Below, one piece after another: positions 7,735 through 48,896 of a stretch of DNA of 64,000 bases; the stretch's first letter is position 1, and each line of letters opens with the position of its first letter. The position numbers and the translations under genes are program-made. Location: NCBI GenBank assembly GCA_001244265.2, contig CDLV01000005.1, positions 2,790,001-2,854,000 on the forward strand. The letters are read 5' to 3'. The notes beneath the pieces were generated by a model, which saw only the letters and a list, made by a program, of their open reading frames with translations, was not told the DNA's origin and ran no database searches. The DNA is from Microbotryum violaceum. Lineage: Eukaryota.

Positions 7735-10700
7735 CTATTTGTTCGCCTTGCCCTCCGCCATGGCCTTGAGCTCATCGAAGTCACCTGATCTGCGACACAG
7801 ATCGGCAAAGACCGACTTCTTGTCGTTGAGTAGATTTGCGGGTGTGTCAAATTCAAGCACCTCACCCGATCCAAGAACCAGGATCTTGTCAAATTCGATG
7901 ATCGTCTGTGCGCATGAGTATGAAAACATCAGTCGGTTGCTCGTATCTTCCTAATCCGGCTCGTGCAAGGAACGCTTACTTTGAGCCTATGCGCGATACA
8001 CAAGATGGGCATCCGACATCTGCTCCCGGATTGTCGTCTGGATATGCTCATCCGTCGCTTGGTCGAGTGAGGCCGTCGACTCGTCCAACAAGAGGATGTT
8101 GGACGTGCGCAGCTTCAGGATACCTCGGGCCAGAGCCAGCAGTTGCCGTTGGCCGGCGCTGAAGTTCTTGCCGCCTTCACTGACTTGCATGTCCAGTGAC
8201 TTGACGATGTTGCGTTCGAGCCCTTCCACCGGTGTCACGGTCGCAGTCGCATCGTCAGATCCATCTGACTGCCCGGAGCCATCCTCCGTCGGACTCGCCG
8301 CTCGACTCGGGCCAGCGGGCGTTGCAGCGGGCGTCGGCTTCGGGGTCAACGGTGCGGCCATCTGCACGCGGCGCAACGCGTCCCACACGTCACTATCCTC
8401 GAACTGCTCAAACGGGTCGAGGTTGAACCGGATCGTGCCCGCGAACAGCGCACTCTCCTGCGCGACGATCGTCAGGCGCGATCGAAGATCCGAGAGGTTG
8501 AGCTTGGCAATGTCGAGGCCGTCGACGACGATGCGGCCCGAGGTCGCCTCGATAAAGCGGAAGAAGCACAAGCCCAGTGTTGATTTGCCCGAGCCTACAG
8601 TGGAGGCGATAGATTGAGGATCAGTTCAAAGTGGATGATTGGGATCTCCAGTCAGCGTCAACACTCACCCGTCCGGCCACAGATACCGATCTTCTCCCGG
8701 GGCGCGACCGAAAAGCTGACGTTCTTGAGCACTGGAGGCAAATCAGACGAGTACGTCGCCGTGAGGTTCTCGACCGTGATCGTGCCATCGCGAGATGGCC
8801 AGACCGCAGGCGGAGACACGCCATCCAGCTTCTCTTGATCGACCTCGAGGTACTCCTGTACTCGTTCGATCGAGTTGGCGTTGATCTCGACCATCGACCA
8901 CAGGCGCACTGCCCACAGGATCCGGTCCATGAACGACATCGTGAACGACAAGATGAAGCCCGCCGCACCGGCATCAATGCTAGGCGTGAGCAAGATCAAC
9001 ACCGCAGCCGCGACGGTGATACCAATGCCGGCGACGTCGACGCGGAACGAGAGCCACCTGTTGGCCTGCCACATCGCGAGGAAGGGACGGTTGTTGAGGT
9101 CGACGAGCTTGAAGATGTTGCGCATGAAGCGCGTGCCGTCGCCGAACGCGCGGATCGTGCTCACGCCGGTGAGCGACTCGCCAAAGATGGAAAAGATCGG
9201 CGACTTGGACGCTGAATCGAATCGGTTCAGCTCACGCGACGAGCAGATGTAGAGCCATCCGACCAAAGCAAAAATCTGATCGAGTGCCATGATGTGAGCA
9301 AGTACTCTACGTGACTAACGCTAACAAACCTCCACTCACAATGGAAATAAGGCAACTCGCCAATAAGAAGCCCGGGAGCACGACCGTGACCGTGATGATG
9401 ACCCCAAAGACGCCCAGTACCTCAAGAAGGAGAAACATCAACGAATTTGCTGTCTGTTGATCGATGACTTCCACGTCCTTGCTCAACCTATTGAGAATGC
9501 GACCTTGTGGCGTTGAGTCGAAGAAGCGGATAGGGGCTCTCAGAAGTCTTGTAACCAGCGATTGGTAAATGACGCGGGAAGCAATTACGCTGCGCCAAGA
9601 AAAAAAGGCGAAGCGAGCACCGGAGAAAACGAGGTTGATGACCGCCATCGTGCAGTACAATCTCATCCAGTAATCTGTTGAGCGTGTTTCTTAAGAGCCA
9701 ACTCCTTCACTCTTAGCGCTGGGTAGATTTATCGGACTGTGCTCGCTGTATCGAGCTACATGGTTCCAACGATTGGTTTCGATGTCATGAAGGTGATCGT
9801 AACTTGAGGACCACTCCCGCAGAGCGTACGCGACTCCGACCTCGGCAGCCTGCGCTATGACGAACAACGAGAGCGACACGCATGCGATCTCGAATCCGCC
9901 CATCGCGCGGAAGTACATCAAGTACGTCTTCGGCGCGACTGCGCCTTCTAATTGGGTCTCGTCCTTGATGAGGCGCAGACTTTCTTGTCGCCGTCGATAC
10001 TCATCGTCGCACACTGCCGCAACCGCCGCATCCGTTTGGCCCTCCGCAATGGATTCGATCGAAACTTGCGATACATTGTGATTTGAAGCCTTCGGATCGA
10101 GCTTGGCGATGAATTCCTCTTCGAGTGAGATCTCGGTCGGCGACCCTACCGAGATGACGGAACCAGCGTCCATCGATACGACATACGAGGCCACGGGGAG
10201 GCACAAGTCGACGGCATGCGTGACGAGCACGATCGTGCGGTGGCGCATAAGCGGACCCTTGAAACACTTGTTAACAAGATGCTGCGCCGTGTGCGAATCG
10301 ACAGCGCTCAGCACATCGTCACCCAGAATGGTGCGAGCCGGCGAATAGACTGCGCGCGCGAGGGCACTGCGGAGGTGTGGAGTGAAAGACCTGTCAATCA
10401 ATCGTGTTCATATTAAGGTCTTCGAAGTGGCAAGACCTACAGTCGAGCCTTTTGTCCACCACTCAGCACGGTGCCCTTCTCGCCCACCTCGGTGTCCTCG
10501 CCGAGCTCGAACTGCTTCAAATCCGGGTTGAGCGCACACGCTTCGAGCACGTCCTTGTATCGCCGCTCGTTCATCGGCGAGCCAAACAGGATGTTGTCGC
10601 GGATCGTCGCACTCATCAGCCACGGCGATTGCGCCGCATACGCCGTCGTATCGGTCAGGATCGCCGGATCCTCCCCTCCCCCGTCGAGCGTCCGACGGGC

Positions 10701-13574
10701 GAAGGCAGGAACGCGCTACCCGACAGCTGGTTCGTCTCGCCGAGCAGCGACATGAGCAACGTGGTCTTGCCGCTCCCAACGGGCCCCAAGATGATGGAGA
10801 ACTTTCCAACGGGGAAGGAGAGGTTCAGGTCACGGATGCGGAACACGGACAGATCCTCCCTCGCCTCAGCCTCGTCGGCCCAGGTGAAGCTCGCCGAATC
10901 GGTGAAGCCTACGATGGGGTTCGAACCCGTGCGCGGCTCCTTGACAACCGCGTACTTGGCCGTCTCTTGTTCGTTGAGGAACTGATCGATACGGCCCAAG
11001 GACACGAGCGCCTCAAGTATTTGTTTGCTAATGTGAGGGACTGTCTCGAATGGTTGCCGAATGAGATTGAAGAGGGAGAGGGCGGTGAAAGCGTCGGACG
11101 CTGTGAGATCTCGTCCCAAAACTTTGGTATGGAACAAGAAGGTGACGAGCGACACAATTATTGGAGAACCGTTGAAGGTGATGTCTGCTACCGCCATCAT
11201 GACAGCTCGCGACCAAAGAGCGTCGAGCTCTTTCCTGCGGGTTACGTCCATCATCCGGAGGAACTTCTCCTCCCACGCGAAGTATTTGAGGATGCGCACC
11301 GAAGCAATCACTTCGGTTATCAGGGATATCCTAGCATCAGCGGCAGCGAGCAAGGCACTTTGGAAGTGGTTGTAGCGACGACCTAGATATGTTTGAAGCG
11401 GAATGAGAGCGATGAGGACCGATACTCCGGCAACGGCGGCCCACCCCAAGAGGTTGATTAGAAGGAGGATGGCGATGATGATGGTAAGGCTGAGATCTGG
11501 GAAAACGTAGTGCAGATTGGCCGACACCTCGGAAACGTGGAATGAGTCGACCGCGATGAGGTTGAGAATTTTCCCGTTCGAGGCCCGGTCAAGTTCTTTC
11601 GCGTCTGGCGAGTATCCGTCTTCGACGGTCGGTGGATCCGACCATTCAGCCGATCTAGATTGAGCGACGGAGGCTCCGGCTAGATCCCTACGTCGAAGCG
11701 CTTTTGTGAAGATTCCGCCGATCAGCACCGATCGTACGCGAATGCAGACGCGTCGTCCGTTGGCCAGCGCTTGGCTAGCTGCCACGGTCGCTAGGAACTG
11801 GCTGAAGAACATCCCAATGACGAAGAGCAGGGCAACGTGAAGAGGAGCTTCCTCGCCGCGATTCCGTTTGGCGATCTCATTCAACAGTCCACGCAGGAAT
11901 AGCGAAGGGACCGCACGAGACAAAGCCGTGAGCAGTGCCCAGCCCTGCTGAACGATCAAGGGGTAGCGGAAATGGAAGAGTAGTTTGGTCGCCATGCCGA
12001 AAGATCGTGCCCGCTGCGGCAAGATGCGCAAGAGAAGAGAGCAATCGCATCGGTACTGAAGCATCCGCCTTGCAGTTCGATCGTCGGGGTCCAGGTTTGG
12101 GATGTCCTCGGCTTTTATCGTGGTCCGAGTGTGGCGCAACAAGAAGCCATCCAGATAGCCAAGCACCATGCGCGAGAATAGTGACACATTGTTTTCAAGT
12201 GGGGCCGAGGGATGTCGCACCCCTTTCAAGGTCGAAGAGGAGCGCGTTGGCCTAGGCGAAAACATCTCCACGGCCGTCATGGCGAGTGTTAGAGCGAAAA
12301 GCGCGACCTCAATCCTGATCTCACGCATCGTCGAGGGCCTTGACGAGGTGAGCGCATCGTAAACATCCTGGAAGGCGATCACCTGGTACACGAGCAACCA
12401 CGGGATGAGGTTGAGCTCGAGGAAAGTAGAGACGCGCGGCAGGCCCCGATGCGGTCGCTTAGGAGCTTGCAGCGACCCGAGCTTGCGCGAGACCGAGATC
12501 GCGAGCTTGATCAGACTCAGCAGCGTCATCCAGCTCTGAAAAGAATCCGATTCAGGAGAAGTCAGCGACCTGGATCCGGGGTACGGTGAACCCAAGACTG
12601 GCCTACTCACCCACGTCGTGATACCAAAGAGAAGCCAGTTGGCGCCGCCGTCCGTCGCAGCCAGCATCTTGGCCACGGATAGGCCTAACACGCCCGCCGC
12701 GCCCAGCAGCCCAAGCACATCCTTCTTGTTGCTCCAAATTGCCGACGCGACCATGCTCGCGCCCAGCTGGAGCGTCGCTCGTTCGAGCTCCTCGTCCTCG
12801 TCATCGATTGCCGATGGGGATCCCGTCTCGCCCGCTAGCGTGTCTAGTTCTTTCGCACTCAGATCGGGCGACTCGTCTCGGACGACGGCGAGGATGACCT
12901 CGTTCTCGGCTTCGGTGATTGCGGACAAGCCGGCGCGCTTGATTTCCTGCGAGGCGATCGAGGACCTTCGTCGGCGATGTGGGGCCCGGTCTCGGCTGGA
13001 GGACCCGGCCTCCTTATTTCGGGCACGACGGCGCGAAGTGATAAGGTAGAGGTGGAAGAGCGTGATGAGCAAGGTCGATAGAAGCGAGATCGAGAGACAG
13101 GCTAGGGGGATCAGGCCGTCGATCGTCCTGGGGGAAGATAGGGGTCACGGGGGAGCAAGGTCAGCTAGTAGATCGGATGAGTCTCAGGTTTGACAGCCCG
13201 CTCGAAGTGGTCGACAACATGAGTGAGCTTAACCCATACGATCGGTTGTAAGTTGAGTGCAGGGGTCACTCCGAAGGCCGGCTCCGAAACCAACGCTGTC
13301 GCTATGACGAGGTCGCAATGTGGTTCCACAGGTCATACATCACGTCGCGTTTCCGTTTCCGAGACAAATCACCGTGCCTTCACTTGTCGATCTTGATGTC
13401 TTGAAACAGACGTCTCCGCGGTCGAAAATGCCTTGGGTGTGCAGAATGCTCGAGGGCTGCTCACCTTCTCATGAAGCATCGAGAGAATTCACGACCATCC
13501 CAATGCGGTGTCGAGTCGTTAACACACCACGCATCACCATTGACCCGTGTGTTGAAGGTAATCTGGCCATCCAT
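7735..13574 (-). CDS. ABCC/MRP-type ABC transporter, copy 2 (full length; apparent 5-nt frameshift at ~10671-10680)
   Basis: Exon 1 at 13574-13465 (MDGQITF...WDGREFSRCFMRR|GTGAGC). TMD1 and NBD1 (GPVGSGKT, LSGGQ), TMD2, then NBD2 (GRTG-SGKS, FSAGQRQLLALAR, LLLDESTAS). Stop after AEGKANK at 7735. A CTCCC duplication relative to copy 1 breaks the frame in NBD1. Confidence 0.92.
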
Positions 13575-23664: not shown

Positions 23665-23995
23665 CACGGGCAACCCTGTGGGCTGCGAGAACCGCACGGA
23701 TCCGTTTCTGGTTTCCGTATGTCCGGCTGGCGGGGCGGATCGTATGAATTCCGTAGTCTAACAGACTAGAATGATCGGAATTACAATCCACTTCTCCCCA
23801 AATCCCATACTTCGGGTGCATGAGAAACACAACAGACGACCGATACATGCTCTGAGGTCCTGTATACCCGTTTCATCCATGACATTTGCTGACAAGTTGA
23901 TGTTGTCATGTTTTGCAAACTATAAGGAATCCAGCAGGAAAATACCGAGTTTCTAAGATGGTCAACCATATCATGGCGATTGAGGGTTGCGCGGG
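23665..23995. mobile_element. 331-bp MITE with TA target-site duplication (Tc1/mariner-type signature), nested in the 5' LTR
   Basis: Absent from the 3' LTR (GGCTA^CATGAG). Flanked by TA...TA. Imperfect TIRs CACGGGCAACCCT / AGGGTTGCGCGGG (11/13). Confidence 0.85.
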
Positions 23996-24044
23996 TACAT
24001 GAGCGCGAGCGCGCGCGGGCTTTCTCTTAGCTTCCTTCTGATTC

Positions 24045-24243
24045 GAGCGTTCTAACGTATTGAACCACCTCGAATCGAGCGTTCTAACGTATTGAACCAC
24101 CTCGAATCGAGCGTTCTAACGTATTGAACCACCTCGAATCGAGCGTTCTAACGTATTGAACCACCTCGAATCAGGTCAGTAGTATTCACGGTATCATTGC
24201 AATAGTTAACTGAGCGTTCTAACGTATTGAACCACCTCGAATC
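24045..24243 (+). repeat. 32-bp tandem repeat GAGCGTTCTAACGTATTGAACCACCTCGAATC x4, plus one further copy after a 39-bp spacer
   Basis: Identical units at 24045, 24077, 24109, 24141 and 24212; the 3' LTR has only 1+1 copies. Confidence 0.95.
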
Positions 24244-24327
24244 AGACGCTGAGATTCTAGAGGTTATAAGCCCGACGACTTCGCACAGCTGCTGCCACGT
24301 TGCAGCGGTTCACCCGAACGCTCCACC

Positions 24328-27300
24328 ATGACTGGCGAACAGTCAACTATCGACAAGTCCGTCGACGCAGACCCTTCAACACACTCACAAGCTTCTCGTT
24401 TCCCTGCATTTGCGAGTTTGAAAAAATAACAACCTCGACGTATGGCTCGACCACGTTCGCTTCACCGTCGACAGGCGTCAGTGGCAGCTCTCCTTTCCCA
24501 AGCAGTACCCATCCGCTAAATGCAAGGACGACGATGAACTCGATCGAGCTCATGATGCGGTACACAAGGCAATGCATTAAACCTGCTCGGAAAGTGTGGC
24601 GCATCTTCTGGTCAGCTGCTACGACATGACGCCGGAGCAGACGGTCGAATACCTTCGAAAGCACCTCGGTCGGTCTTCCCTTCGTGGCATTATCACGCAA
24701 GTCGGAAAATTGTTCTCGGTCGGACCGCCACCAGCACAGGAAGACGATTATCTTCCTTGGGCCGGATCCACCACTCGCCTCACAACTGACCTACGGGCTC
24801 ACAATTTGACGTTGGATCGAGTGGTTGCATGCCACCTCATTGCGATTGTGGGGGCTCGACGACCGTCGTATCTGGATCAGTTCGACTCCAAAGGCGTCGA
24901 TGCGATACCAACTGTCGACACAGTGATCGCAGCGGGTCGAGCTCCAGCAAACTTGAGTCAAGATACTGGGAACGCTGCGACGGCGTTGTTGGCCACGACT
25001 GGTGCCCAACCGAAGCCACCCGGCCCCTGCTGGAACTGCGGTGAAGACACCCACTTCAACAAAACTGTTTCAAGCCGAAGAAGAAGAAATCTCCACGACG
25101 CAAGACGACCAAAGGCGAGGAACCGATGGCAAGTTTGGCGCTCCCTTCGGTTGAAGACATTCTGGGGACCGATTCCGTTGGCGCGTTCTTCACGCAATTA
25201 CCAAAGGGACACTCGAGAGAAATGATCCTCTACGACACGGCAGCAACTCATCAGGTCATAAATGATCCTGCCGCGTTCGCCGACCTGAAGGCGACAGCTC
25301 CGTCTTCGTTGAAGGGCATCAATGGTGACGGAAAGACCATTATGGGAGTAGGCACGGCCTGCGTCGAAGACCAGAACGGCAAGAGGTACAAACTGGTCAA
25401 CAGCCTCTTCGTCCCTAGCGCCCCCGCCAATCTCTTCGCCGGGCATCGAGCCGATCGTGATAGTCGCAAGATCACCATTCAAAACGGGCGATTCACGGTA
25501 GCGGGAAATGACGACATTCTACTCACGGGGCAGAAGCTCAATTCGGGGTTGTACCGTCTGGACCTCAAGTTGGTTCAAGCTCGAAGATCACCCCATGAAT
25601 GTGCGTCAGCCACAGCTCTAACAGCAGTGCCTCTCCACATCTGGCACGGCCGTTTCGCTCATCTGCATTGCCGTTCCCTTCACCAGCTGCCCAAGTCTGA
25701 CGCTGTGATAGGTTTGAACATGAAGTCTCGCAGTGACTTGAAATGCGAATCGTGTCTGGCCGGCAAAGCTACGCACAAGCCGTTCCCAAACTCCGAATCA
25801 CGAGCCGGAAAACCCCTCGATCTCGTCCACATCGATCTTCTGTCCTTCGACGGCGAGCTGTCACTTGCAAATCATCGCTACGCGCTAGTTATCGTCGACG
25901 GTTGATACGCGGTACATGTGGGTGTTGACGATGCCGCGAAAGTCGGACTCCTTTGAAAGGTTCAAAACCTGGAAACTACGGGTCGAGCTGTCGTCAGGGC
26001 ACACTTTGAAAGTTGTCCATTCGGACCGCGGTGGCGAGTTCCTTTCGACGGAGATCAAGCGATGGTTGGACGACACGGGTTTGTCGCGACAACTAACGAT
26101 CCCAGCACGCCCGAGGAAAACTGTGTCGCCGAAAGGGCCAACCGTTCGATTTCGGAAGCAGCTCGAACGATGCTGTATGAATCCGGTCTGCCCACGGTGT
26201 TTTGGGCCGAAGCCGTGGCTACATGCGTGTATGTGAAGAATCGTTCCCCACATTCTGCTCTTGGTGGCAAGGTGCCATTTCGGGAATGGACTGGGAAACC
26301 TGCTCACGTTCATCACTTACGGGTCTTCGGATGTTGAGCTTGGCACACGGCAAATACCGAACAACGTAAGAAGCTCCAGCCACGGGGCCTTCCGATGATC
26401 TTCCTCGGATACGACCTAGAATCCAAAGCCTATCGCCTATGGGACCCGGTGAGGGGGGCGGTTAACGTTATCGCGAAGCGTAACGTTCTTCGAGGACAAG
26501 TTCCCGGCCCGCGAAGGCGCATCAGCACCGAGGACACCGAGGATTGAAGCGATCGAAGTAGTCGTACCTCGACCAGTCACGACAGATCGACATGAACATG
26601 AAGCTGCGCAACAGCCGGTCGCTGCGAACCAGGCCCCGGAGGTCGAGGTACTTGAAGCCCGGGAGGAAAATCCGGTTAACGACGTTGACCCCGCCGAGCA
26701 ACGCGCACCAATTGTGGAAGATGTACCAAAGGAGTTGCGTTTTGACGCCCCTGGACCTGCTTGGGCAGCACCGGTCGGAAAACGGGATCGTAGGGCGCCT
26801 AAGCGTTTCGAACCGGAGGCCTTCGTAGCCGTCGCTGATTCCGACGAGGAAGACGGTCCGTTTGTTTTGCCGACTAGTGATCCCACGACTTGGAAGGCAG
26901 CCATGGCACACCACAAGTCTCTCGAATGGGCGCAAGGTGCAATCGATGAGTTCGAGTCATTGCGTGACGATTACTCAGTCTTTACGATTATGAAACGAGA
27001 CGAGCTTCCCGCCGGCGCCAAGGTTCTCGGGTCCAAATACGTTTTCCAAACAAAATTGGACAAGGATGGTCGGCCGACTTCGTACAAAGCTCGACTTGTT
27101 GCACGAGGCTTCACGCGACGGCCGGGAATTGACTTCAAAGAGACGTTCGCGCCGACAGCGAAGTTTGTCTCGATTCGTACTCTCATCGCGTTGGCAGCCG
27201 CCCGGGGTTACCATATCATCCAAGCGGACATTGACAAAGCTATTTGCATGGCGAACTTGAAGAGGAGTTGTACATGCGCGTACCGTAGGGAATTCGACTG

Positions 27301-28428
27301 CCCGACGATGTCTGTCTCAAGTTGCAACGCTCGATTTACGGTCTCAAGTAGGCCGGCCGGGTATGTAACGAGACGATCCATAAGACCCTCGTCAAGCTTG
27401 GTTACAATCGTCTTCGGAGCGAAGAGTGTGTCTATCGTCAAACACTTGGCAAAGACGATTATTACATCGCGGTTTACGTCGACGACTTGCTGTTTGTCGG
27501 TCCCGACTTATCCGAAATTGGTCGCGTGCTCGACGAATTGGATCGATTGTACGGAGTCAAACCTCTCGGCAATGCAGAGTACATCCTTGGCGTCCAGCTC
27601 ATTCGTCAAGCGGACGGGATTGCGTTGTCGCAACGACAGTATTTGCTCGATGTACTTGCAAGGTTCGGCATGGCGGATGCTAACAAAAGTGTATTACCAA
27701 TGCGACCGGGTGTTCAGCTCAAACCCTGCGACACTCCGGATCCCTCGTTACAAACGCAGCACAGGTCGGCGATTGGATCGTTGATGTACGCCATCGTTGC
27801 AACTCGGCCTGATCTTGCATACCCGGTGTCGTTTTTGGCAAGATTCACGAACAAGGCGGGCAGCGACCATTGGGCGGCAGTTCTGAAGATTCTACGCTAC
27901 ATCAAGGGAACTCTCGAACTCGGCATTGTCTACAAGGCGAAACGTGAATCGTTGGTTGGATACGTGGGATACTCGGATTCAGACTGGGGTTCCTGCATCA
28001 ACACGTCCCGATCTACAATGGGGCATGTTTTCAAGCTGGCTGACGGGCCAATCTCTTGGAGTTCTCGGATCCAGAGCCGAGTGGTGACGTCGTCAACGGA
28101 AGCGGAATACATCGGCCTTACTCATGCGTCTCGAGAGTGTCAGTTCTTGCGAAATTTGCTCGTGGAATTGGGAATCACGATTTGTGGGCCGATCGAGCTG
28201 AAAGGCGACAATCAAGGCGCAATAGCTCTCACAAAGAATCCAGTGTTCCACAATCGAACTAAGCACCTACGCCTGACGGAGCATTTCGTCCGAGAACGGG
28301 TACGAGAAGGTGACATCGTTGTTAACTATCTTCCAACCGCCGAGATGCTTGCCGGCATGTTTACGAAGGCGTTGCCGAGACCGGCACTAGAGAAGCACAG
28401 GGCGTCCATAGGGATGGGAATCATGTAG
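24328..28428 (+). pseudogene. Copia gag-pol polyprotein, fragmented by frameshifts and stops
   Basis: Zinc knuckle CWNCGEDTH, protease YDTAAT, WHGRFAH..C..C, integrase HIDL/HSDRGGEF/ERANR, RT YKARLVARG and YVDD, RNase H YSDSDW/SSTEAEY/DNQGAI. Confidence 0.93.
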
Positions 28429-28447
28429 GCCTTAGAGCGAGGGGGGG

Positions 28448-28653
28448 TGTTGAGTTGACACTTGAGGAGTACACTCTGCAGGCTACATGAGCGCGAGCGC
28501 GCGCAGGCTTTCTCTTAGCTTCCTTCTGATTCGATCGTTCTAGCGTATTGGACCACCTCGAATCAGGTCAGTAGTATTCACTGTATCATTGCAATAGTTA
28601 ACTGAGCGTTATAACGTATTGAACCACCTCGAATCAGACGCCGAGATTCTAGA
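28448..28653 (+). repeat. 3' LTR (206 bp)
   Basis: Follows the PPT, runs TGTTGAG...TTCTAGA and is followed by the TSD GAACG. Confidence 0.95.
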
Positions 28654-29735
28654 GAACGTACCATGCACCGTTGTCGACCAGTAAGACCGCCCCACCCGAG
28701 CGGCAAGTAGATGCAGTCGAACCTGAAGAGGTGTAATGTGAAGCGCATCGTGGTGCTGAAAGGTCAGCTCTCTACGGGCGGCGGCTCATTTCAAACCGAC
28801 GCTGAGGCTTACCACAAAAAGTAACCCCGCTCCTCAACCCATGTAATCACCTAGCCTAGAGATTATGATCTTGTTGCACTTCCGAAGTCGACTGGAGTCG
28901 ACCGAGAGTCGCCAAGCGGCGGGATGGGCATTGGGCATTTCGTCAATATTGATCGTCGATTGGTCGAGTGGGGGGAGAGGGTGACGGATCACAACCGTAG
29001 CGGGTATAGGGAACTTCTTGCGATTGGGCATGTATCTGAAGCTGGATCGTTTGTTCTCATGAATTTGCTGAAAGTGAGAAGCGAACCGCCTTTCCAGAGC
29101 GCCAGTACCGAGTCGATCACTATGACGGCTAGCGTGAGCGCGAGCAGTAACGACGCGAAGACGCCAACCTTGAGCCACCGTGGCTTAAAATTGGATTTAT
29201 TTTCCCATGATGATGTTTTCTCAATCGTGTCCTGACGCCACCGCCATAGTACCCCTGTTACCGGGCGTAGTCGAAACGTGGGGCGCAAGCTTAGCGAACG
29301 CCAACCGTGCTCGGAGTCGCCGTACCATCACAGCTCACGACTGACTAGTCGCTCTCATTCGATGGCATGGTAGAGTGTCTCCTGTGGCGTGACCCTCATG
29401 CTTGTCGCTATCTTCGCTCGTATCCTCGCTTGCGCGGCGTCGATTCGCACGGCGCGTCTGGTCGTCGTTTGTGCCGGAAGGGGTCCCCAATAGGAGCACC
29501 TCCTCGGAGCACCTCCTCTGAAATATGTCTTACGTGACCCGATGCGCTGGTTGAGTCCATTCCAAATCGGGATTCGAAAGCAACAAAGAATTACGAACGG
29601 CGAAGGGAACACCCAAGAACGCGTAGAAGGCTCATGCGCCTACTCCGCCGTTCGGGCTTATGTATCATGTCTCGCCGACCGGACAGGAGAGGGGTCCGGT
29701 CGCACGCGCTTGATTGTCTCACTGGCCGTCCCGGG

Positions 29736-37844: not shown

Positions 37845-39067
37845 ATGGCTTCCAGCTCGGCTCTGACCCTGACTCGTCAACTGACCCGTACGTTCCTTTT
37901 CTCTCGGGCGTGGTCACCGCCGAGCAACGTGCAAAACGGCCGCGCGTCGCGACGGGGTCCACACACGTCGTCGTCGCACCGCGTTGCATCACGTCTACAG
38001 CATGCCGTAGATCGTGCCACGTCTGACGTGCACACGCGCTGAATCCTACTCTCCCTTGTCATGCTCTTGTCTCGCATCGGCCGCTTCCCCATCTCTCGTG
38101 GCCGCTGCTCCGAATTGCCCGCTCTGCTGCCCCCACTCTGATCACCACCGCCATCACCGCCTGTACTCGCGCTGCCACTCTCAAAACACGAATCCTTCCC
38201 CCCTTACAGAACTGACAAAACACCCAGTCGAGGGCTTTTCCGCCGGGCTGATTGACGATGACAACGTCTACGAGTGGGAAATCACCATCTTTGGGTCCGT
38301 ACGACCCTTGCCCCACCATCGAACTCCATCCACGACTAACCCCCCCCCCCATATCTTCTTCATCGTCCTACCACCTTTCCAGTCCTCCCGACACATTGTA
38401 CGAAGGTGCCTTTCTCCGAGCGACGTTGACCTTCCCGCAAGACTTTCCACTCCGACCACCCAAGATGAAATTCTTGACCGAGATGTGGCACCCCAACAGT
38501 GCGTACGCCACGAGAGATACAGCCGAGACGTCGATGCTGACCACTCTGAATCGACCGTGCACAGTCTACAAGAATGGTGAAGTCTGCATTTCGATCCTCG
38601 TAAGTCCGAGCGGCGAGTCTTGACCTTTTGACGAGCCAACCTTGACCCAGTCGTTCCTCTTTCCCTCCCTCCAGCACGAACCTGGAGCCGATCAGTACGG
38701 GTTCGAAGACGCCTCCGAACGATGGTTACCTGTCCATGGCGTCGAGTCGATTGTACGTGCTACGACAGACCCGTTTCACCTACTCCAAGCGATCAGCTGA
38801 CGATGCAAACACATGCCGATTACCCCAAAACAGTTGATCTCGGTTATTTCGCTCTTGTCCGCGGACACGCCGAATACTGACTCGCCCGCCAACGTCGATG
38901 CTGCAGTACGTCTCACGTGATTCCTATTGCGTCGAATCAGCTTGTCATGCTGATCCTCCCCCTTTTAACATGCTCTATTCGTGCAGAAGGAAGTGAGGGA
39001 AGACATTCAAGGCTATCGCAAAAAGGTCCGACGACTGGTCAGGAAATCCGCCGAAGATTGCTTCTAG
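37845..39067 (+). CDS. Ubiquitin-conjugating enzyme E2 (UBE2G1/Ubc15/Cdc34 class, with acidic loop)
   Basis: PVEGFSAGL, GPPDTLYEG, MWHPN..GEVCISILHEPG..D..E...ERWLP and SPANVDAA; multi-exon. Confidence 0.93.
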
Positions 39068-39910
39068 ATTTCTCTTTTCTTTCACACAAAAAACGACTCG
39101 TCATCATCGGTATTTTTTTGATCATGTTTTTCGTCCTTTTTTTTTTTTTTTTTTTTGATCTGGAGTTTTTTTTTTCTAAAGCTGCGTGCGTCGGTTTCGT
39201 GGGTTTTCAATCCTCTGCTTCCGAACCTACCTCGTTCGTCCCCAATCGCAATGTATCATCTTAAAGACTAGTACCTGATTTGCAGGCGGGGGGAAGAATT
39301 TCGTCGTCGGGGATCGAATCGTTTTTGAGAGAGCGGTGTGTTGACAGCAAGCACCACGAGAGAGAGGAGTTCAATTTATCGGGAAGGGAACCAATTTTTG
39401 AAATATGGGAATGGAGGGCGTAGGCTTCCAGTCCGGAATACTTTACCCCTTTTCTTTATTCAATTTAATGCAGCGAACCCCGCTCGGTCTTTACTGACTT
39501 ACATCTTGGTGGGTCTGATCAAGTCACAACTGTACTTACCCTAATACCTACCTACCTGATTGGGAAGACGAGACTCCCTAATCTTTGAATCTCTGAATGC
39601 TGGCAGCGGTCCGTGACGTCCGTTCAGTATGCCGACCCTGGCCCCATTGACTATAATAGGGTCCGCAATGATATAGCGTCCACGTTGAATTGAGATTACA
39701 GAAAATACCGATACCCCCGAAAGGGTGGGGGGGGGGGGGGGGGGCCGTGTCGTAAAGATCTTTGGTCGAACGAACAGAGCTTTTGATTACGTTGTCTCAT
39801 CGTCGGACTAAAAAGTCTCTCGCGAACTGGCGGCACGAGAACCCCGAAAAAGTGTAACAGACAATAATGACACGGAACCAAAATGAATCAGAGACATTAA
39901 GAAACATGAT

Positions 39911-42770: not shown

Positions 42771-42989
42771 CGCGTGCAAGGCCGGAGGCCTTTGCCCGAG
42801 GTATTATGGAAGGCGATGGAGCTTTGGACTTTTAGTTGGATAGCTTGCACCCACCTAGAACCTCGGTTCAGTGAGCTGGCGAAAGCCAAGAAAGGTTCTA
42901 GGCGCGTGCAAGCTATCCAACTAAAAGTCCAAAGCTCCATCGCCTTCCATAATACCTCGGGCAAAGGCCTCCTCCGGCCTTGCAACGCG
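42771..42989. repeat. Hairpin 1: ~95-bp inverted arms (42771-42863 / 42893-42989), 29-nt loop, 67-bp perfect core
   Basis: 42784-42850 is the exact reverse complement of 42906-42972. Confidence 0.97.
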
Positions 42990-43367
42990 CTCACCGACTC
43001 CTTCTCTGGCCTCAACATCAGAAGACGGACAAACATATCGATTCAAAATAATGGTGGGGCTATGTACGAGGGTGATGATGGATTCGAGCAAGATTTTCAT
43101 CATTACACGTCTTTTTTCCTCGAACCCTGTCCACTCGAGATCTACGAGCCTCAAGAAGTCGAGCAGATTAAAGGCTCGACCAGCTCAGAAGCGAACTCGC
43201 CCCTTCCTTCACCCCCGCACACACACGCGAAAGGGTGAAAACGACACATCTCTCTTTCCTTACGCGTGAGGCAATACTGCGCAAGCTCGAACGCCCTCAG
43301 TCATTTGTGATGGGCAGCAAGTGGCGACTCAAACCGCGCATCCGAGCACTAGCCGGCTACGAGGCCG

Positions 43368-43726
43368 ATTTCACCGATCGCCTGCTCAACATTAAGGATG
43401 CCTACGAGGGTCCTGCCTGCTTCGGACCAACGCATTTGAACCAACCGAACCAGGCACCCAAGCTCAATCATTTGATCACGATTGACGGGAACTTTCAGCA
43501 ATGGCGCAACCAAGTGGCCAAACACGACCCGCAAGCCACCTTACCGGACTTGTTCGACGCGGTAGGGTGGCTTGCGGGTCGTGCTTGGCCGCCGTGTTGC
43601 GCCATTGCTGAAAGTTCCCGTCAATTGTTGGGTGCCTGGCTCGGCTGGTTCAAATGCGTTGGTCCGAAGCAGGCAGGACCCTCGTAGGCGTATGCATCTG
43701 TATGTTGAGCAGGCGATCGGTGAAAT
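43368..43726. repeat. Hairpin 2: ~170-180-bp arms (43368-43546 / 43560-43726), 13-nt loop; arms encode a KDZ-transposase-like fragment
   Basis: Direct reverse complementarity with a few mismatches and one ~18-nt bulge. Translation GPACFGP...ITIDGNFQQWR resembles the CPAC / DGNF motifs of Kyakuja-Dileera-Zisupton transposases. Confidence 0.92.
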
Positions 43727-43730
43727 TCAC

Positions 43731-44645
43731 CTGCTCAAGCGGTGGTAAGGCTCTGATCGACGGACCAACGAGACCAGACCAAGACGTTGCTTGGGGATAG
43801 CGACAGCAACAGCAGGAGCTTCAGCTGGACGAGCCCTGATCTCTCGATAGATACGGTCGAGGAGTTCGGCCGCGGGAGGTGAGGCGCCGGACGTGCCCTG
43901 AGAATTCACGAAGGTCGTGCGCCATGCGGAGAGAGATGGCGGCATCCTTGCGAGTAAGTGAGACGCAAGTCGCTGCCTTCGCTGCCTCCGATCTCCTCCG
44001 CGACGCCAACGGCTACCAGGACTGGGTTCTTACGCTGTGCTCCCGCCTGCCATTCGACGTCCTCGAATACCTCAAGTCCGGTGTACCCCATCCCTCTTGG
44101 CCCCCATCCTATGTCCCACTATGGGACCACTACGCTCGCGCCTCCATCTGCGCTGCCGTCGACCCACGGATGGTTCTTCCCGGCCTGTCTCGTTACTTCG
44201 GCGACGCCCACAGCGGCCACAAGATTTGGGTGGCTCTCCGCATGCGATATGGCGCCGTCTCAGCTGTTGACCTCCTTCCCGTCGTCGCTCGCCTCTTCAG
44301 CCCCGAGCCCATGCCCGACACCCCCGACGCATTCCTCCAGTTTCGTGACCGTTTTGAGAACGATTCTCGCCTTCTGGCCGACTCCAACGTCACCACGGAT
44401 TCCCTCCTTGCGTCTCACTTACTCGCAAGGATGCCGCCATCTCTCTCCGCATGGCGCACGACCTTCGTGAATTCTCAGGGCACGTCCGGCATCTTACCTC
44501 CCGCGGCCGAACTCCTCGACCGTATCCATCGAGAGATCAAGGCTCGTCCAGCTGAAGCTCCTGTTGTTGCTGTCGCTAACCCCAAGCAACTCCTCGGTCT
44601 GGTCTCGTTGGTCCGTCGATCAGAGCCTTACCACCGCTTGAGCAG
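43731..44645. repeat. Hairpin 3: 239-bp arms (43731-43969 / 44407-44645), 437-nt loop; loop and right arm are a copia gag-like fragment
   Basis: Reverse-complement arms with an ~84-bp perfect run. ORF 43879-44718 reads NGYQDW...ARASICAAVD...KIWVALRMRYG...LLARMPPS, a retrotransposon gag (UBN2-like) pattern. Confidence 0.92.
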
Positions 44646-44739
44646 TCGTCGCATCCTCATACGTAGTAGGCGGCTAGTGCTCGGAACTCGTCGAGTGCTC
44701 GTTGCCATTGTTTTCTAGGTTCGCGATCCTGAGAAATAA

Positions 44740-45100
44740 TTGCACACAGGCGGGATGAGTGCAAGTCCGCTCCACGAGGATAGGAATCATGTTACGCGGT
44801 GGTGTCCGCTTTCGCTTTTGACTAACAAAGGGATGGGATGAAAGCGCTCCCGAATCTCCCCACCCGCATCTTTCGTAGTAGTCATCCATTCCTTGGGCCA
44901 TCATCCCATTAACTGATGAAGGATCAGCAGCCCAGCCAGATTCGACAAGCTGTAAAACCTGAACTGTGAATGCAGACAATGGATTCGAGGCAGTTGCACC
45001 CATGAGGCCTATCTTGGCCAGTCGTTCGGCGTATGTGATGCAGGGGTTGGCGGTGTCGGATAGCGGACAGAAGGATGCCTTGAGGAGAAAGCCTTTGACA
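44740..45100 (-). pseudogene. CxC1-like cysteine-cluster fragment of a KDZ transposase
   Basis: Translation FCPLSDTANPCITYAERLAKIGLMGATASNPLSAFTVQVLQLVESGW fits the FC..C..L..G....P..AF..LL..W pattern as recalled; not confirmed by HMM. Confidence 0.55.
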
Positions 45101-45833
45101 AGGGGTGGCGATGACGATATAAACCATTTGAGCTATCGGCATTCCATGGAAATACGAGGGGGCAGCAGATTCGGATGTACTCACGACTGGCAGCGCCATG
45201 TAACCGAATGTGTCGTCGGTCTTTGGTATAATCACACTCACACGGCCGCGGGTCCAGCCTCAGTACACAGGGCTGCCGCTCTCCACGTCCTCGGCCTCGA
45301 TGATGCGCGGTTTGAGTCGCCACTTGCTGCCCAACACAAACGACTGAAAGAGTGGGCGTTCGAGGTTAAAAGTATCATTAGACACAATTTCAGGCATAAT
45401 ATAGCCACCTAAAAATAAAATAGCACTAAATGAAGGCAACATTTTCATTCATTCATCATCCATTTTTCCACCAGTAATAATACTATACTCTACATAATAA
45501 TCAAACATAGCTTTCAAGAATCTGCGCAGTCTTGCCTCACGCGTAAGGAAAGAGAGATGTGTCGTTTTCACCCTTTCGCGCGTGTGTGTGCGGGGATGAA
45601 GGAAGGCGCGAGTCCGCTTCTGAGCTGGTCTAAGGAAGCGACCCGCCGTGTACTTTTGGATATTCCTGAGGTGGTCTATTACGCAATAGGTTGAAACGTG
45701 CTCGGTCTCGCTCAACTCGATCACTCAGCTCGGACCCACTCCTCCGCTCTCTGCGAGCCCTCGTCTTACATCAAGCGCATCGCAATCCGACTACCACCTA
45801 CATCCATCATAAAACTGCGACAACTCACCAACT

Positions 45834-46861: not shown

Positions 46862-48896
46862 CTAATCGAACCGAATCTTCTTCGACGTGCCCTTAATGTC
46901 GTCTCTGTAGAAATCGCCATAAGTCGAATGCGTCTGCTTCTTGATCGTCGTCCCCCACTGGTACATGCCCTCGGGGACATCATGACCGCCATCCTTCAGG
47001 ACGCGGATCAATTCACCCGCATGGGCCTTGTCCGCCTCGGTGAAGAAAGTGACTGAGATACCGGTCCTTCCCGCACGACCTGTTCGACCGATACGATGAA
47101 TGTAGTCCTCGATCGTAAGAGGGAACGTCTGATTGACGACGAGTTCGACTTTGGGGATGTCCAATCCACGCGCGGCGACATCGGTCGCGACGAGGAGTTG
47201 TACTCGACCGTCCTTGAAGTCCGCGAGCGACTTGGTCCTTCGCTCTTGTGTCATGTCGCCCTGGATACAACCGACTTCATAGCCCTGTCGTTCGAGGAAC
47301 TCCATCACGCGCGTCGCTTCCTTCTTGTACAAAGCAAAAATCAAGGCCTTCTCTCGGTCTTTACCAATCGCTCCACCCTTCTTGACGCCACCTTTGGTGA
47401 AACCATGCTGGGACAAGACGGATAGAAGGCGCTGCTCCTTTTGTCGCGAGTCGGGAAGTACGATGACGGATTGGGAAACGCGCACGTTGGCGGTCAACTC
47501 GTCGTTGCCAACGGTGATACGGATGGGCGAGCACATAAAGTCGGATGCGAGGCGGCGGACCGAGGTGGGCCATGTAGCCGAGAACATGCACGTCTGCGCG
47601 AAGGAACTATCCTACATCAACTGCGGTGTGCTCTAGCCAGGCTAAAAAAAATCACTTACCATCCTAGCCTTGGGTTCTTGCCCCTGTCCCGCACCGGCAA
47701 TCTTCGGTAACGACGCCTCGGGCAAAGGCAAGCATTTGGCAATGATCTCCCTGATATCGTTCTCGAACCCTTTGTCCAGCATACGATCGGCCTCGTCGAG
47801 AACCAACCAACTGACATGACTGAGGTCAAGGACGCCTTCGTTGGCCAAATCGAGCAATCGACCTGGTGTACCGACGACGATGCGTGCGCCCGTTCGGAGG
47901 GTCGCCTTTTGCAAATCTTTCGGCACACCACCGTAGATGCATACCGAAGTGATGCTTGGAAGTGCGGAGGTGACGGAGGCCAAGTTGGCGTGGGTCTGCA
48001 TCGCCAGTTCTCGGGTCGGCGCGACGACGAGGACCGAGACGGGCGGAGGCGAAGACTTCTTGCCCTTGGAAGCGGGGTGAGGAGGCAGTGAGAGGATGTG
48101 TTGGATGGCGGGGACACCAAATGCGACGGTCTTTCCGGAACTGTGAGTCAAATGGAGCACTTATTGGATTCAGGTACCAGGCGCAAGATGGGTCACTCTC
48201 CCTTCCTTACCCAGTTTCGGCGATGCCGACGACGTCCCTTCCTCCCATCATGACGGGGAACGATGCCGACTGGATCGGAGTCGGCTTAGCGTAACCACTG
48301 AGGCCCTTCCTCAGACCGTCCTCGAGGGGCAAAGCAGCGAACGACAGCACGGGAGGGTACAGATCCTTGGCGTTGGTCGGCTCAAAAGTGATTCGGTTCG
48401 CCGAGAGGAACGAGTCGATATCGGATGACGATGACGAGCTGGCTGCGGCGGGTCCGGTCGAGGCTGCGGCGGATGATGATGTAGCTTCTGAAGGAGATTT
48501 CTTGTTCTTCTTGCTCTTCTTCTTGGCGGGTTCTTCGATCTGTTCCTCCGCTGCTGCTACGGGTGCGGAAGTTTCAGACTGCTCGGCGTTGGGCGGTACT
48601 TCCTCCTCTTCCTCTCGGGCCTTGCGTTTCTTCTCCTTCTTGATGCGTTTCCTCTCTTCCTTGGACAACTTGTCCCCCTCCCCATTCGCGGGTGTATCAA
48701 CCTTGATCTCCGAATCGTCATCGCCGGTCATCTTGGCAGCCACATCGCCGGTTTCCTCAGCCGTGGCTCGTTCAGCCCTTCTGGCCAACTTGCGAGCCTT
48801 CTTGGCTTCCTTCTTGGCTTGCTTATCCGCTGCATCCGAGGTATTTGGTGCGACCGAGGTGTGCGACAGCGTCGGATCGTCGATTGGCAATCCCAT
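46862..48896 (-). CDS. DBP3: DEAD-box RNA helicase Dbp3
   Basis: Lys-rich N-terminus, PTPIQ, AETG-SGKT, PTRELA, DEAD, SAT, ALYKKEA and [10 protein letters not shown]. Confidence 0.95.

What the first reader, a model, noticed from the sequence alone, without database searches (positions are those of the whole stretch)
42771..45630. Composite multi-hairpin locus built from fragments of several unrelated selfish elements: candidate anti-transposon/antiviral hairpin-siRNA 'memory' locus
Seen: four long inverted repeats within 2.9 kb. Hairpin 1 has ~95-bp arms. Hairpins 2 (~175 bp) and 3 (239 bp) lie in series inside an outer repeat of ~165 bp per arm. The arms are near-identical, with perfect runs of 67-84 bp. 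Each stem comes from different coding material: KDZ-transposase-like (hairpin 2, possibly hairpin 1), copia gag-like (hairpin 3) and an unidentified ORF (outer stem). There are no LTRs, no clear TIR/TSD and no complete element. The locus sits between the divergent RAD7 and CRIPT promoters, which could supply transcription. Established: inverted duplications of TE coding sequence can produce hairpin RNA that silences cognate elements in trans (maize Mu killer), and fungal Dicer processes such stems. Inference: repeated, independent capture and inversion of coding fragments from different parasites at one site is hard to explain as ordinary TE debris. It resembles an adaptive, piRNA-cluster-like hairpin array, which I do not know to be described in basidiomycete yeasts.
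Basis: partly seen in the sequence, partly recalled or inferred. Interest (0 to 1): 0.9.

Follow-up and report, generated by a model that had tools for sequence, protein, structure and literature searches.

The report
Folded-back transposon scar in Microbotryum
The cluster of long inverted repeats is real, but it looks like the scar of a broken and badly repaired transposon carrying a captured retrotransposon fragment, not a purpose-built anti-parasite memory locus, although it could still yield silencing RNAs if it is transcribed.

Summary
All four inverted repeats are present at the stated coordinates. They are the only inverted repeats over 100 bp in the 64-kb window.

They do not come from several unrelated parasites. 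The outer repeat and hairpin 2 are two pieces of one palindrome. It is built from residues 173-428 of a single KDZ transposase gene. The left arm later lost 619 bp. The right arm gained a 155-nt AT-rich filler and hairpin 3.

Hairpin 3 is one internally deleted copia fragment: gag plus a short LTR piece. A 7-nt inverted microhomology sits at its fold-back junction. It entered with a 7-nt target deletion and 4-5 nt of filler at each junction, not a target-site duplication.

Hairpin 1 could not be identified.

Arm divergences are homogeneous, 2.9-6.2% (p=0.76). Only 1 of 19 transitions is RIP-like.

Two adjacent gene models in Microbotryum silenes-dioicae span the same junctions. The structure is therefore not an assembly artefact and predates that split.

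Best reading: a scar of fold-back break repair inside an old KDZ insertion, with captured filler DNA.

A Mu killer-like silencing role remains possible. It could not be tested because the sequencing-run tool did not complete.

The parts
42771..42863 (.). H1 left arm. An inverted copy of 42893-42989. Origin not identified.
   Evidence: 97.1% over 102 aligned nt; hairpin -197 kcal/mol, z -27. Pfam gave nothing.
42864..42892 (.). H1 loop.
42893..42989 (+). H1 right arm. It lies 58 nt upstream of the first clearly KDZ-homologous codon. It may be the KDZ N-terminal region, but this is not shown.
   Evidence: the best frame against the KDZ N-terminus scored 44, z 2.4, and 12 of 300 shuffles reached that score. 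This is not significant.
43047..43177 (+). KDZ residues 129-172 (numbering of P0007). Present in the left copy only. A frameshift lies just before 43178.
   Evidence: tblastn with P0007, P0008, P0010.
43178..43342 (+). Segment A, left arm of the outer repeat. KDZ residues 173-236.
43343..43546 (+). Segment C. KDZ residues about 355-425, including the DGNFQ stretch. 43368-43546 is the H2 left arm. Segment B is missing between A and C, with a 2-nt 'TC' microhomology at the junction.
43547..43559 (.). Centre (turn-around) of the KDZ palindrome, at KDZ residue about 428.
43560..43726 (-). Segment C', the H2 right arm. An inverted copy of KDZ residues about 365-425, with a 17-nt deletion and a 5-nt insertion relative to the left arm.
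43727..43730 (.). 4-nt filler at the junction between KDZ C' and the copia insert.
43731..43969 (-). H3 left arm. An inverted copy of copia gag residues 179-240 plus an LTR-derived piece. Its last 7 nt double as the gag T-Q-V codons, giving the inverted microhomology.
43970..44406 (+). H3 loop. Copia gag residues about 33-178, in sense orientation.
   Evidence: 89% identity to residues 31-239 of the 1498-aa copia polyprotein P0016.
44407..44660 (+). H3 right arm (to 44645) plus 15 further nt of copia. Gag residues 179-239 are joined directly to an LTR-derived piece, so all of pol is deleted.
   Evidence: The peptide encoded here recurs at a constant spacing of 1493 aa at both ends of full-length copia models, so it is LTR-encoded.
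44661..44665 (.). 5-nt filler at the junction between the copia insert and KDZ B'. Seven KDZ nucleotides present in the left arm (43361-43367) are missing here. There is no target-site duplication.
44666..45301 (-). Segment B'. KDZ residues 237-361, the cysteine-cluster region. Present only in the right arm and split over three reading frames.
   Evidence: 76% identity over residues 251-347; weak CxC1 match, E 0.034; 7 of 7 hits are KDZ transposases.
45302..45367 (-). Segment A', proximal part of the right outer arm.
45368..45522 (.). 155-nt AT-rich insert (28% GC) inside A'. No target-site duplication. Origin unknown; possibly captured mitochondrial DNA.
   Evidence: junctions; lowest-GC 155-nt stretch of the window, against a mean of 55%; open frame on the minus strand only if TGA=W.
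45523..45630 (-). Segment A', distal part of the right outer arm. The palindrome ends at KDZ residue 173.

Best explanation
The locus is the rearranged remnant of one KDZ (Kyakuja-Dileera-Zisupton) DNA transposon. It had inserted between the divergently transcribed RAD7/Rhp7-like and CRIPT genes of a Microbotryum genome.

Shown:
- Only the 5' part of the transposase gene survives, from residue about 129 to 428 of roughly 920. It is present as a palindrome A-B-C | C'-B'-A' centred at 43547-43559.
- The left arm has lost segment B (619 bp).
- The right arm carries a 155-nt AT-rich insert and a roughly 930-bp copia fragment (gag plus a short LTR piece). That fragment is itself folded back, with a 239-nt inverted copy of its far end attached to its near end.

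Inferred:
- A break inside the transposon removed its 3' two-thirds.
- The exposed 3' ends primed on themselves at short microhomologies (snap-back synthesis). This made the KDZ palindrome and probably H1.
- A copia minus-strand DNA that had snapped back at a 7-nt microhomology was captured by end joining in the right arm. A compositionally foreign filler fragment was captured there too.

Since then the arms have drifted apart as ordinary non-functional DNA. The locus was inherited by at least two sibling species.

If the region is transcribed, its 25-84-bp perfect duplexes would be Dicer substrates. On this reading any siRNA is a by-product, not a selected memory function.
For: KDZ palindrome:
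- tblastn with full-length M. intermedium KDZ proteins maps collinearly. Residues 173-236 map to 43178-43342(+) and 45630-45302(-). Residues 237-361 map only to 45301-44666(-). Residues 350-428 map to 43340-43555(+) and 43760-43560(-).
- A DNA comparison of the two arms gives the same collinear blocks. It includes a 20-nt match of 43341-43360 with 44685-44666 (E 2.6e-4).
- In P0007 the KDZ catalytic domain lies at residues 400-608. Almost all of it is therefore absent from this locus.

Copia fragment (H3):
- It matches residues 31-239 of a 1498-aa copia polyprotein, followed by an LTR-encoded piece. Both arms carry that deletion junction.
- The arm/loop junction has a 7-nt inverted microhomology.
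- The insert replaced 7 KDZ nucleotides and has 4-5 nt of filler at each end. There is no target-site duplication and no LTR ends.
- The AT-rich insert also lacks a duplication. It is the lowest-GC stretch of the window.

Experimental parallels in yeast:
- Retrotransposon cDNA and mtDNA are inserted at breaks by end joining (PMC11372161, abstract).
- Inverted double insertions form by fold-back in single-stranded DNA. Microhomology between the inverted pieces has a median of 6 bp (range 2-11), against 0-4 bp at the outer junctions (PMC11724301, abstract and sections 19-20).

Age and decay:
- Arm divergences are 2.9-6.2% and homogeneous (chi-square p=0.76).
- There are 19 transitions, 11 transversions and 46 gap columns over 668 aligned nt.
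- After the split from M. silenes-dioicae, the window's right H3 arm acquired changes absent from both its own left arm and the sister species.

Real and single-locus:
- The adjacent M. silenes-dioicae genes C007g04780 and C007g04781 span the A-C junction with the H2 centre, and the H3 arm/loop junction. Identity is 98.4% and 98.7%.
- The junction-specific peptide occurs only in these two orthologues among the roughly 60 proteins stored by then.
Against: - The repair mechanism is inferred from junction anatomy. It was not observed.
- H1 has no identified source. Its link to KDZ rests on position and a non-significant similarity.
- The AT-rich insert gave no Pfam or PDB match when read with the mitochondrial code. 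Its origin is open.
- Homogeneous arm divergence fits one event, but with 3-10 mismatches per pair it cannot exclude several events close in time.
- Conservation in a sister species is expected from common descent. It would also be expected under selection.
- The RNAi machinery is present and expressed in this genus.
- Perfect duplexes of 25-84 bp survive.
- The close KDZ family was seen as intact genes only in M. intermedium. It was not seen in M. silenes-dioicae, whose proteome is in the same database. A Mu killer-like silencer could produce that pattern.
- No RNA or small-RNA data could be examined.
Confidence: 0.62

Rival explanations
1. It is a functional hairpin-RNA silencer of the Mu killer type. 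On this reading the locus is transcribed, for example by divergent transcription from the RAD7 or CRIPT promoters or from a remnant KDZ promoter. The stems are diced, and the siRNAs silence KDZ and copia relatives in trans. The locus is kept because of that effect.
For: [quoted passage not shown]
- Perfect duplexes of 25-84 bp exist.
- Dicer, two Argonautes and an RdRP are present and expressed in M. lychnidis-dioicae.
- Cognate copia copies at 77-90% protein identity are multicopy in M. silenes-dioicae.
- Close KDZ relatives were found only in M. intermedium: 7 of 7 hits.
- The structure is retained in two species.
Against: - Both neighbours are transcribed away from the locus. Unlike Mu killer, read-through from a flanking gene cannot supply the hairpin transcript.
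- The arms show unconstrained decay: 4.5% mismatches, many indels, a 619-bp arm deletion and insertions that break the long stem.
- New mismatches have arisen since the species split.
- The matching copia family is still multicopy, with near-identical copies in the sister species. It has clearly not been shut down.
- No expression data were obtained.
Confidence: 0.15
2. It is an adaptive, piRNA-cluster-like trap. On this reading the site repeatedly and independently acquires and inverts fragments of different parasites.
For: Two unrelated element classes (a DNA transposon and an LTR retrotransposon) and one unidentified hairpin lie within 2.9 kb. No other long inverted repeats occur in the 64-kb window.
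Against: - Only two families were identified.
- Two of the four repeats are one palindrome.
- All arm pairs have the same divergence.
- The copia hairpin sits inside the KDZ arm as a filler-type insertion with a target deletion.
- No fragment younger than the species split is seen, because the sister species has the same junctions.
Confidence: 0.04
3. It is a mobile, multicopy foldback or non-autonomous KDZ derivative that uses the inverted 5' ends as long terminal inverted repeats.
For: Fold-back of one transposon end is a known route to non-autonomous elements with long inverted termini (recalled, not from a call). The outer arms are the same KDZ 5' segment in inverted orientation.
Against: - The two ends are unequal. 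The left copy runs at least 131 bp further out than the right arm.
- No target-site duplication is visible at 43178/45630 or at 42771/45630.
- There is no second copy in the window.
- The protein cluster of the junction-spanning model has only 2 members, one per genome.
- No whole genome was available to count copies.
Confidence: 0.05
4. It is an assembly or amplification chimera.
For: Palindromes are a classical artefact of some library preparations (recalled, not from a call).
Against: Gene models from a separately assembled M. silenes-dioicae genome (a 1.31-Mb contig) cross the A-C junction, the H2 centre and the H3 arm/loop junction at 98-99% identity. The arms differ by 3-6%, which an artefactual copy would not.
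Confidence: 0.02

Closest known systems
Maize Mu killer (Muk)
   Same: [quoted passage not shown] The KDZ palindrome here covers residues 173-428 in both orientations.
   Different: [quoted passage not shown]
- Here no transposon terminus is recognisable, and both neighbours point away from the locus.
- The long stem is broken by a 619-bp deletion and two insertions.
- Silencing activity is untested.
- The host is a fungus without the plant RdDM pathway (the last point is recalled).
Inverted duplications of Ac/Ds made by alternative transposition in maize
   Same: Aberrant events at a DNA transposon create inverted duplications of transposon sequence that trigger siRNA silencing (bioRxiv 10.1101/2020.01.07.897926, start of abstract in the listing).
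   Different: The mechanism there is transposase-driven alternative transposition. Here the junctions point to fold-back synthesis and end joining, and no transposon ends are present.
Filler DNA and inverted insertions at repaired double-strand breaks in budding yeast
   Same: - Retrotransposon cDNA and 45-200-bp mitochondrial pieces are inserted at breaks by end joining (PMC11372161, abstract).
- Two fragments of one locus are inserted in inverted orientation through fold-back in single-stranded DNA. Microhomology is 2-11 bp between the inverted parts and 0-4 bp at the outer junctions (PMC11724301, sections 19-20).
- H3 shows a 7-nt inverted microhomology, 4-5 nt of filler, a 7-nt target deletion and no duplication.
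   Different: - The yeast events are mostly tens to about 150 bp. Here the arms are 95-1000 bp.
- The events here are ancient germline events in another phylum.
- A cDNA origin for the copia piece and a mitochondrial origin for the AT-rich piece are inferences.
Long-inverted-repeat / endogenous hairpin-RNA loci (LIRBase; Drosophila hpRNA genes)
   Same: A long inverted repeat that could be transcribed into hairpin RNA and diced. LIRBase lists 6.6 million such repeats in 424 eukaryotic genomes (PMC8728187, start of abstract in the listing).
   Different: Membership as an siRNA-producing locus needs small-RNA evidence, which is lacking here. The Drosophila hpRNA comparison is recalled, not taken from a call.

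Membership tests
KDZ (Kyakuja-Dileera-Zisupton) DNA transposon | Homology to a KDZ transposase protein | tested here: met
   7 of 7 hits carry PF18758, at 76-78% identity; collinear tblastn over residues 129-428.
KDZ (Kyakuja-Dileera-Zisupton) DNA transposon | Catalytic KDZ domain (PF18758) present, i.e. an autonomous element | tested here: not met
   The domain spans residues 400-608 in P0007. The locus stops at residue 428. Pfam found no KDZ domain in the locus ORFs.
KDZ (Kyakuja-Dileera-Zisupton) DNA transposon | Terminal inverted repeats and a target-site duplication | tested here: inconclusive
   No duplication is visible at the block boundaries. Native KDZ termini from this genus could not be fetched for comparison, because no fungal genome DNA is held.
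Ty1/copia LTR retrotransposon | Gag homologous to copia polyproteins | tested here: met
   all 17 hits are from M. silenes-dioicae; 13 carry rve and 8 carry RVT_2; 89% identity to residues 31-239 of P0016; the domain order of P0016 is integrase before reverse transcriptase.
Ty1/copia LTR retrotransposon | Pol (protease, integrase, reverse transcriptase), two LTRs and a target-site duplication | tested here: not met
   Nothing from the locus matches P0016 between residue 240 and the LTR-encoded C-terminal stretch (residues 1465-1490), so no pol domain is covered. Only a 60-78-nt LTR-derived piece is present. The junctions show a target deletion and filler.
Mu killer-type hairpin silencer | Inverted duplication of part of the transposase gene | tested here: met
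Mu killer-type hairpin silencer | A transcript running through the inverted repeat | not tested
   The look-up of sequencing runs gave no answer in 13 tries, so read laying could not be used. Both flanking genes point away from the locus.
Mu killer-type hairpin silencer | siRNAs from the stem and heritable silencing of the cognate element | not testable with these tools
   No small-RNA data set for Microbotryum surfaced. Searches were judged by listings only.
piRNA-cluster-like adaptive trap | Fragments of many different element families gained by independent insertions over time | tested here: not met
   Two families were identified, and two of the four repeats are one palindrome. Arm divergences are homogeneous (p=0.76). 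The sister species has the same junctions.
Mobile foldback element | Several copies with target-site duplications | tested here: inconclusive
   There is a single copy in the window. The junction-spanning protein cluster has 2 members, one per genome. No whole genome was available.

The most novel reading that the evidence does not exclude
This is a natural fungal counterpart of maize Mu killer. A fold-back remnant of a KDZ transposase gene, with a nested copia gag/LTR hairpin, would be transcribed at a bidirectional promoter and diced. It would have helped to extinguish its KDZ family in the M. lychnidis-dioicae / M. silenes-dioicae lineage. That family is still multicopy and intact in M. intermedium. 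The locus would also dampen the related copia family.
Probability: 0.12. Interest if true: 0.7.

Novelty: new member of a known kind. Interest (0 to 1): 0.3.

Why it matters
On the best-supported reading, this is a well-preserved natural example of fold-back repair with captured filler DNA inside a transposon. It shows how long hairpin-forming loci can arise in one step from repair accidents rather than by adaptive capture. That makes it useful as an annotated case, but not surprising.

If the minority reading were true, it would be the first hairpin-type transposon silencer described in a Pucciniomycotina fungus. No such report surfaced in the two searches made (listings only). It would link the loss of a KDZ family to a specific locus. 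That could be tested directly by deleting the locus and sequencing small RNAs in a tractable anther-smut species.

Tried and rejected
Tools that gave nothing:
- No whole genome is held for the window. Copy number of the arms in the genome could not be measured.
- The look-up of sequencing runs gave no answer in 13 identical requests. Read laying was therefore never used. No evidence on transcription, small RNA, read support or mitochondrial depth was obtained.

Searches without a useful result:
- Pfam on 8 locus ORFs gave only a weak CxC1 match (E 0.034) and nothing for gag, H1 or the A-C ORF.
- Rfam at E<=1 gave 7 matches on H1 and H2, six to miRNA-precursor models and one to a bacterial sRNA. 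All were below their gathering scores, and I read them as generic hairpin matches.
- H1 against the N-terminal 112 residues of a KDZ protein, in six frames: best z 2.4, with 12 of 300 shuffles as good. BLASTP did not extend upstream of residue 113. H1 stays unidentified.

Mitochondrial reading of the AT-rich insert:
- With TGA=W, the minus strand is open over 54 codons. I estimate roughly a 1-in-6 chance of such an open frame across six frames at this composition. This is my own estimate, not a call.
- Pfam and PDB gave no match.

RIP-like mutation as the cause of arm divergence: rejected. By my inspection of the contexts listed, 1 of 19 transitions lies in a TCG/CGA context. Six of 19 are at CpG.

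'Pol C-terminus' reading of 44583-44660: replaced by 'LTR-encoded'. The peptide recurs at both ends of full-length models at a constant 1493-aa spacing.

The atlas search on gag gave only weak leads: a zf-CCHC cluster at 0.91 and Ty Gag at 0.88. The direct copia hits superseded it.

Supplementary files of papers were not consulted.
Full report
OBSERVATION.
- H1 spans 42771-42989. Its core arms are 98% complementary, with a 29-nt loop.
- H2 spans 43368-43726, centred on 43547-43559.
- H3 has 239-nt arms at 43731-43969 and 44407-44645 (95.8%) around a 437-nt loop.
- The outer repeat pairs 43178-43342 with 45302-45367 plus 45523-45630.
- Perfect inverted runs reach 67 bp in H1 and 84 bp in H3.
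- Each hairpin folds far better than its shuffles, at z -27, -34 and -30. No shuffle did as well.
- In a self-comparison of the whole window, every inverted repeat longer than 100 bp is in this locus.
- The neighbours are a Rhp7/RAD7-like LRR gene on the minus strand and CRIPT on the plus strand. Both are transcribed away from the locus.

ORGANISM. The gag-like frame hits only Microbotryum proteins (6 hits, one being the window's own model). The nearest named relative is M. silenes-dioicae at 99%. The window therefore comes from an anther-smut fungus very close to that species.

THE OUTER REPEAT AND H2 ARE ONE KDZ PALINDROME.
- The minus-strand ORF at 44677-45132 finds seven proteins of 619-920 aa in M. 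intermedium. All carry the KDZ transposase domain, at 76-78% identity.
- Laying these proteins on the locus gives a collinear picture, in P0007 numbering:
  - Residues 129-172 lie at 43047-43177, plus strand only.
  - Residues 173-236 (segment A) lie at 43178-43342 and, inverted, at 45630-45302.
  - Residues 237-361 (segment B) lie only inverted, at 45301-44666, spread over three frames.
  - Residues 350-428 (segment C) lie at 43340-43555 and, inverted, at 43760-43560.
- A direct DNA comparison of the two halves finds the same blocks in the same order. It includes a 20-nt match that ties the end of B' to the A-C junction of the left arm.
- The structure is therefore A-[B lost]-C | C'-[copia insert]-B'-A'[AT-rich insert].
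- The KDZ catalytic domain occupies residues 400-608 of P0007. The locus stops at 428, so no functional transposase is encoded.
- The B deletion has a 2-nt microhomology at its junction.

H3 IS A FOLDED-BACK COPIA FRAGMENT INSERTED BY END JOINING.
- Searching longer proteins with the gag frame returned 17 M. silenes-dioicae proteins. Of these, 13 carry an integrase core and 8 a copia-type reverse transcriptase. One is a Helitron-type helicase model that has swallowed a copia 5' end.
- The fragment matches residues 31-239 of the 1498-aa polyprotein P0016 at 89%.
- The stretch that follows (44583-44660) at first looked like the pol C-terminus. However, its peptide recurs near both ends of full-length models at a constant spacing of 1493 residues. 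It is therefore LTR-encoded.
- The fragment is thus gag joined directly to a short LTR piece, with all of pol deleted. Both H3 arms contain that junction.
- Where the left arm meets the loop, the last 7 nt of the arm are also the first gag codons of the loop. This is an inverted microhomology.
- That is what is expected if the 3' end of a single-stranded minus-strand copia DNA annealed to itself 437 nt upstream and copied back towards its own 5' end.
- The insert sits between B' and C'. It replaces 7 KDZ nucleotides that the left arm retains. It has 4 and 5 nt of filler at its two junctions, with no target-site duplication and no LTR termini. An integrase did not do this.

THE AT-RICH INSERT.
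- 45368-45522 interrupts A'. It replaces one or two nucleotides and again has no duplication.
- At 28% GC it is the lowest-GC 155-nt stretch in the window, whose mean is 55%.
- Read with TGA as tryptophan, its minus strand is open throughout. This hints at mitochondrial DNA.
- Pfam and PDB sequence searches found nothing.

H1. No family was found for it. It begins 58 nt upstream of the first KDZ-homologous codon and could be the poorly conserved, low-complexity N-terminal region. The best alignment is not significant: z 2.4, with 12 of 300 shuffles as good.

AGE, DECAY, REALITY.
- The five arm comparisons give 2.9, 6.2, 4.2, 3.8 and 5.1% mismatches. These are statistically homogeneous (p=0.76). 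One event or a short burst is enough to explain them.
- Changes comprise 19 transitions, 11 transversions and 46 gap columns. Only 1 of 19 transitions is in the TCG/CGA context of the Microbotryum RIP-like process (the target context comes from a passage of PMC10502011).
- The M. silenes-dioicae genes C007g04780 and C007g04781 are adjacent on a 1.31-Mb contig. The first spans the A-C junction and the H2 centre. The second spans the H3 arm/loop junction. Identities are 98.4% and 98.7%.
- The architecture is therefore not an assembly artefact, and it predates the separation of the two genomes.
- Where the two species differ in the right H3 arm, the window's own left arm agrees with the sister species. 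The arms are still drifting apart rather than being homogenised.

MECHANISM.
- Shown: the composition, order, orientation and junction features described above.
- Inferred: a break within an old KDZ insertion, loss of its 3' two-thirds, snap-back synthesis at exposed 3' ends, and capture of a snapped-back copia DNA and a foreign filler by end joining.
- Yeast experiments give close parallels. Retrotransposon cDNA and 45-200-bp mitochondrial pieces are inserted at breaks by end joining (PMC11372161, abstract).
- In those experiments, pairs of fragments from one locus are inserted in inverted orientation through fold-back within single-stranded DNA. Microhomology between the inverted parts is 2-11 bp, against 0-4 bp at the outer junctions (PMC11724301, abstract and sections 19-20).

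FUNCTION.
- The KDZ palindrome has the anatomy of maize Mu killer (PMC3440606, abstract in the listing).
- M. lychnidis-dioicae has an expressed Dicer, two Argonautes and an RdRP (PMC4469406, passages).
- Any transcript crossing the locus should be diced. I could not test transcription, because the sequencing-run tool did not complete in 13 tries.
- Against a selected function:
  - The neighbours cannot supply read-through transcription.
  - The long stem has been broken by a deletion and two insertions.
  - The arms decay freely.
  - The matching copia family remains multicopy, with clusters of near-identical full-length copies in the sister species.
- In favour: intact genes of the close KDZ family were found only in M. 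intermedium (7 of 7). M. silenes-dioicae shows only a different KDZ family, at 37% identity. The word-based search may have missed copies, and unannotated copies would not appear.

VERDICT.
- The interpretation as an adaptive multi-parasite memory array is not supported.
- Best reading (0.62): a break-repair scar in a transposon remnant, with any siRNA as a by-product.
- A Mu killer-like role keeps about 0.12-0.15.
- Novelty: a new member of a known kind.
- Interest: 0.3.

Noticed in passing
window 23990-28650: A separate copia-type element with direct terminal repeats (about 23993-24262 and 28481-28654, 81-94% identical). Its pol is only 30-55% identical to the copia family of H3, so it is a different family and not a target of the H3 stem.
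   Followed up: partly
window 661-4010 and 9851-13164: A 3.4-kb direct duplication at 82.7% identity. Both copies encode ABC transporters (ABC_membrane plus ABC_tran), so they are two nearby paralogous genes on the minus strand.
   Followed up: partly
window 7209-7279: A 72-nt palindrome (94%). It is the only other inverted repeat reported in the window self-comparison, and it lies beside a low-GC stretch at 7024-7187.
   Followed up: no
window 45368-45522: The AT-rich filler (28% GC) is open on the minus strand only with the mitochondrial code. It may be a nuclear copy of mitochondrial DNA, but this is unconfirmed.
   Followed up: partly
window 39005-39230: The second-lowest GC stretch of the window (32%), just downstream of the RAD7-like gene.
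   Followed up: no
P0020 (M. silenes-dioicae C006g04106): This 1532-aa Helitron-type helicase model starts with the same copia LTR piece and gag N-terminus. That suggests a copia 5' end fused into a Helitron gene model in the sister species.
   Followed up: no
window 46862-48160, minus strand: A DEAD-box helicase gene (DEAD plus Helicase_C) lies downstream of CRIPT.
   Followed up: no
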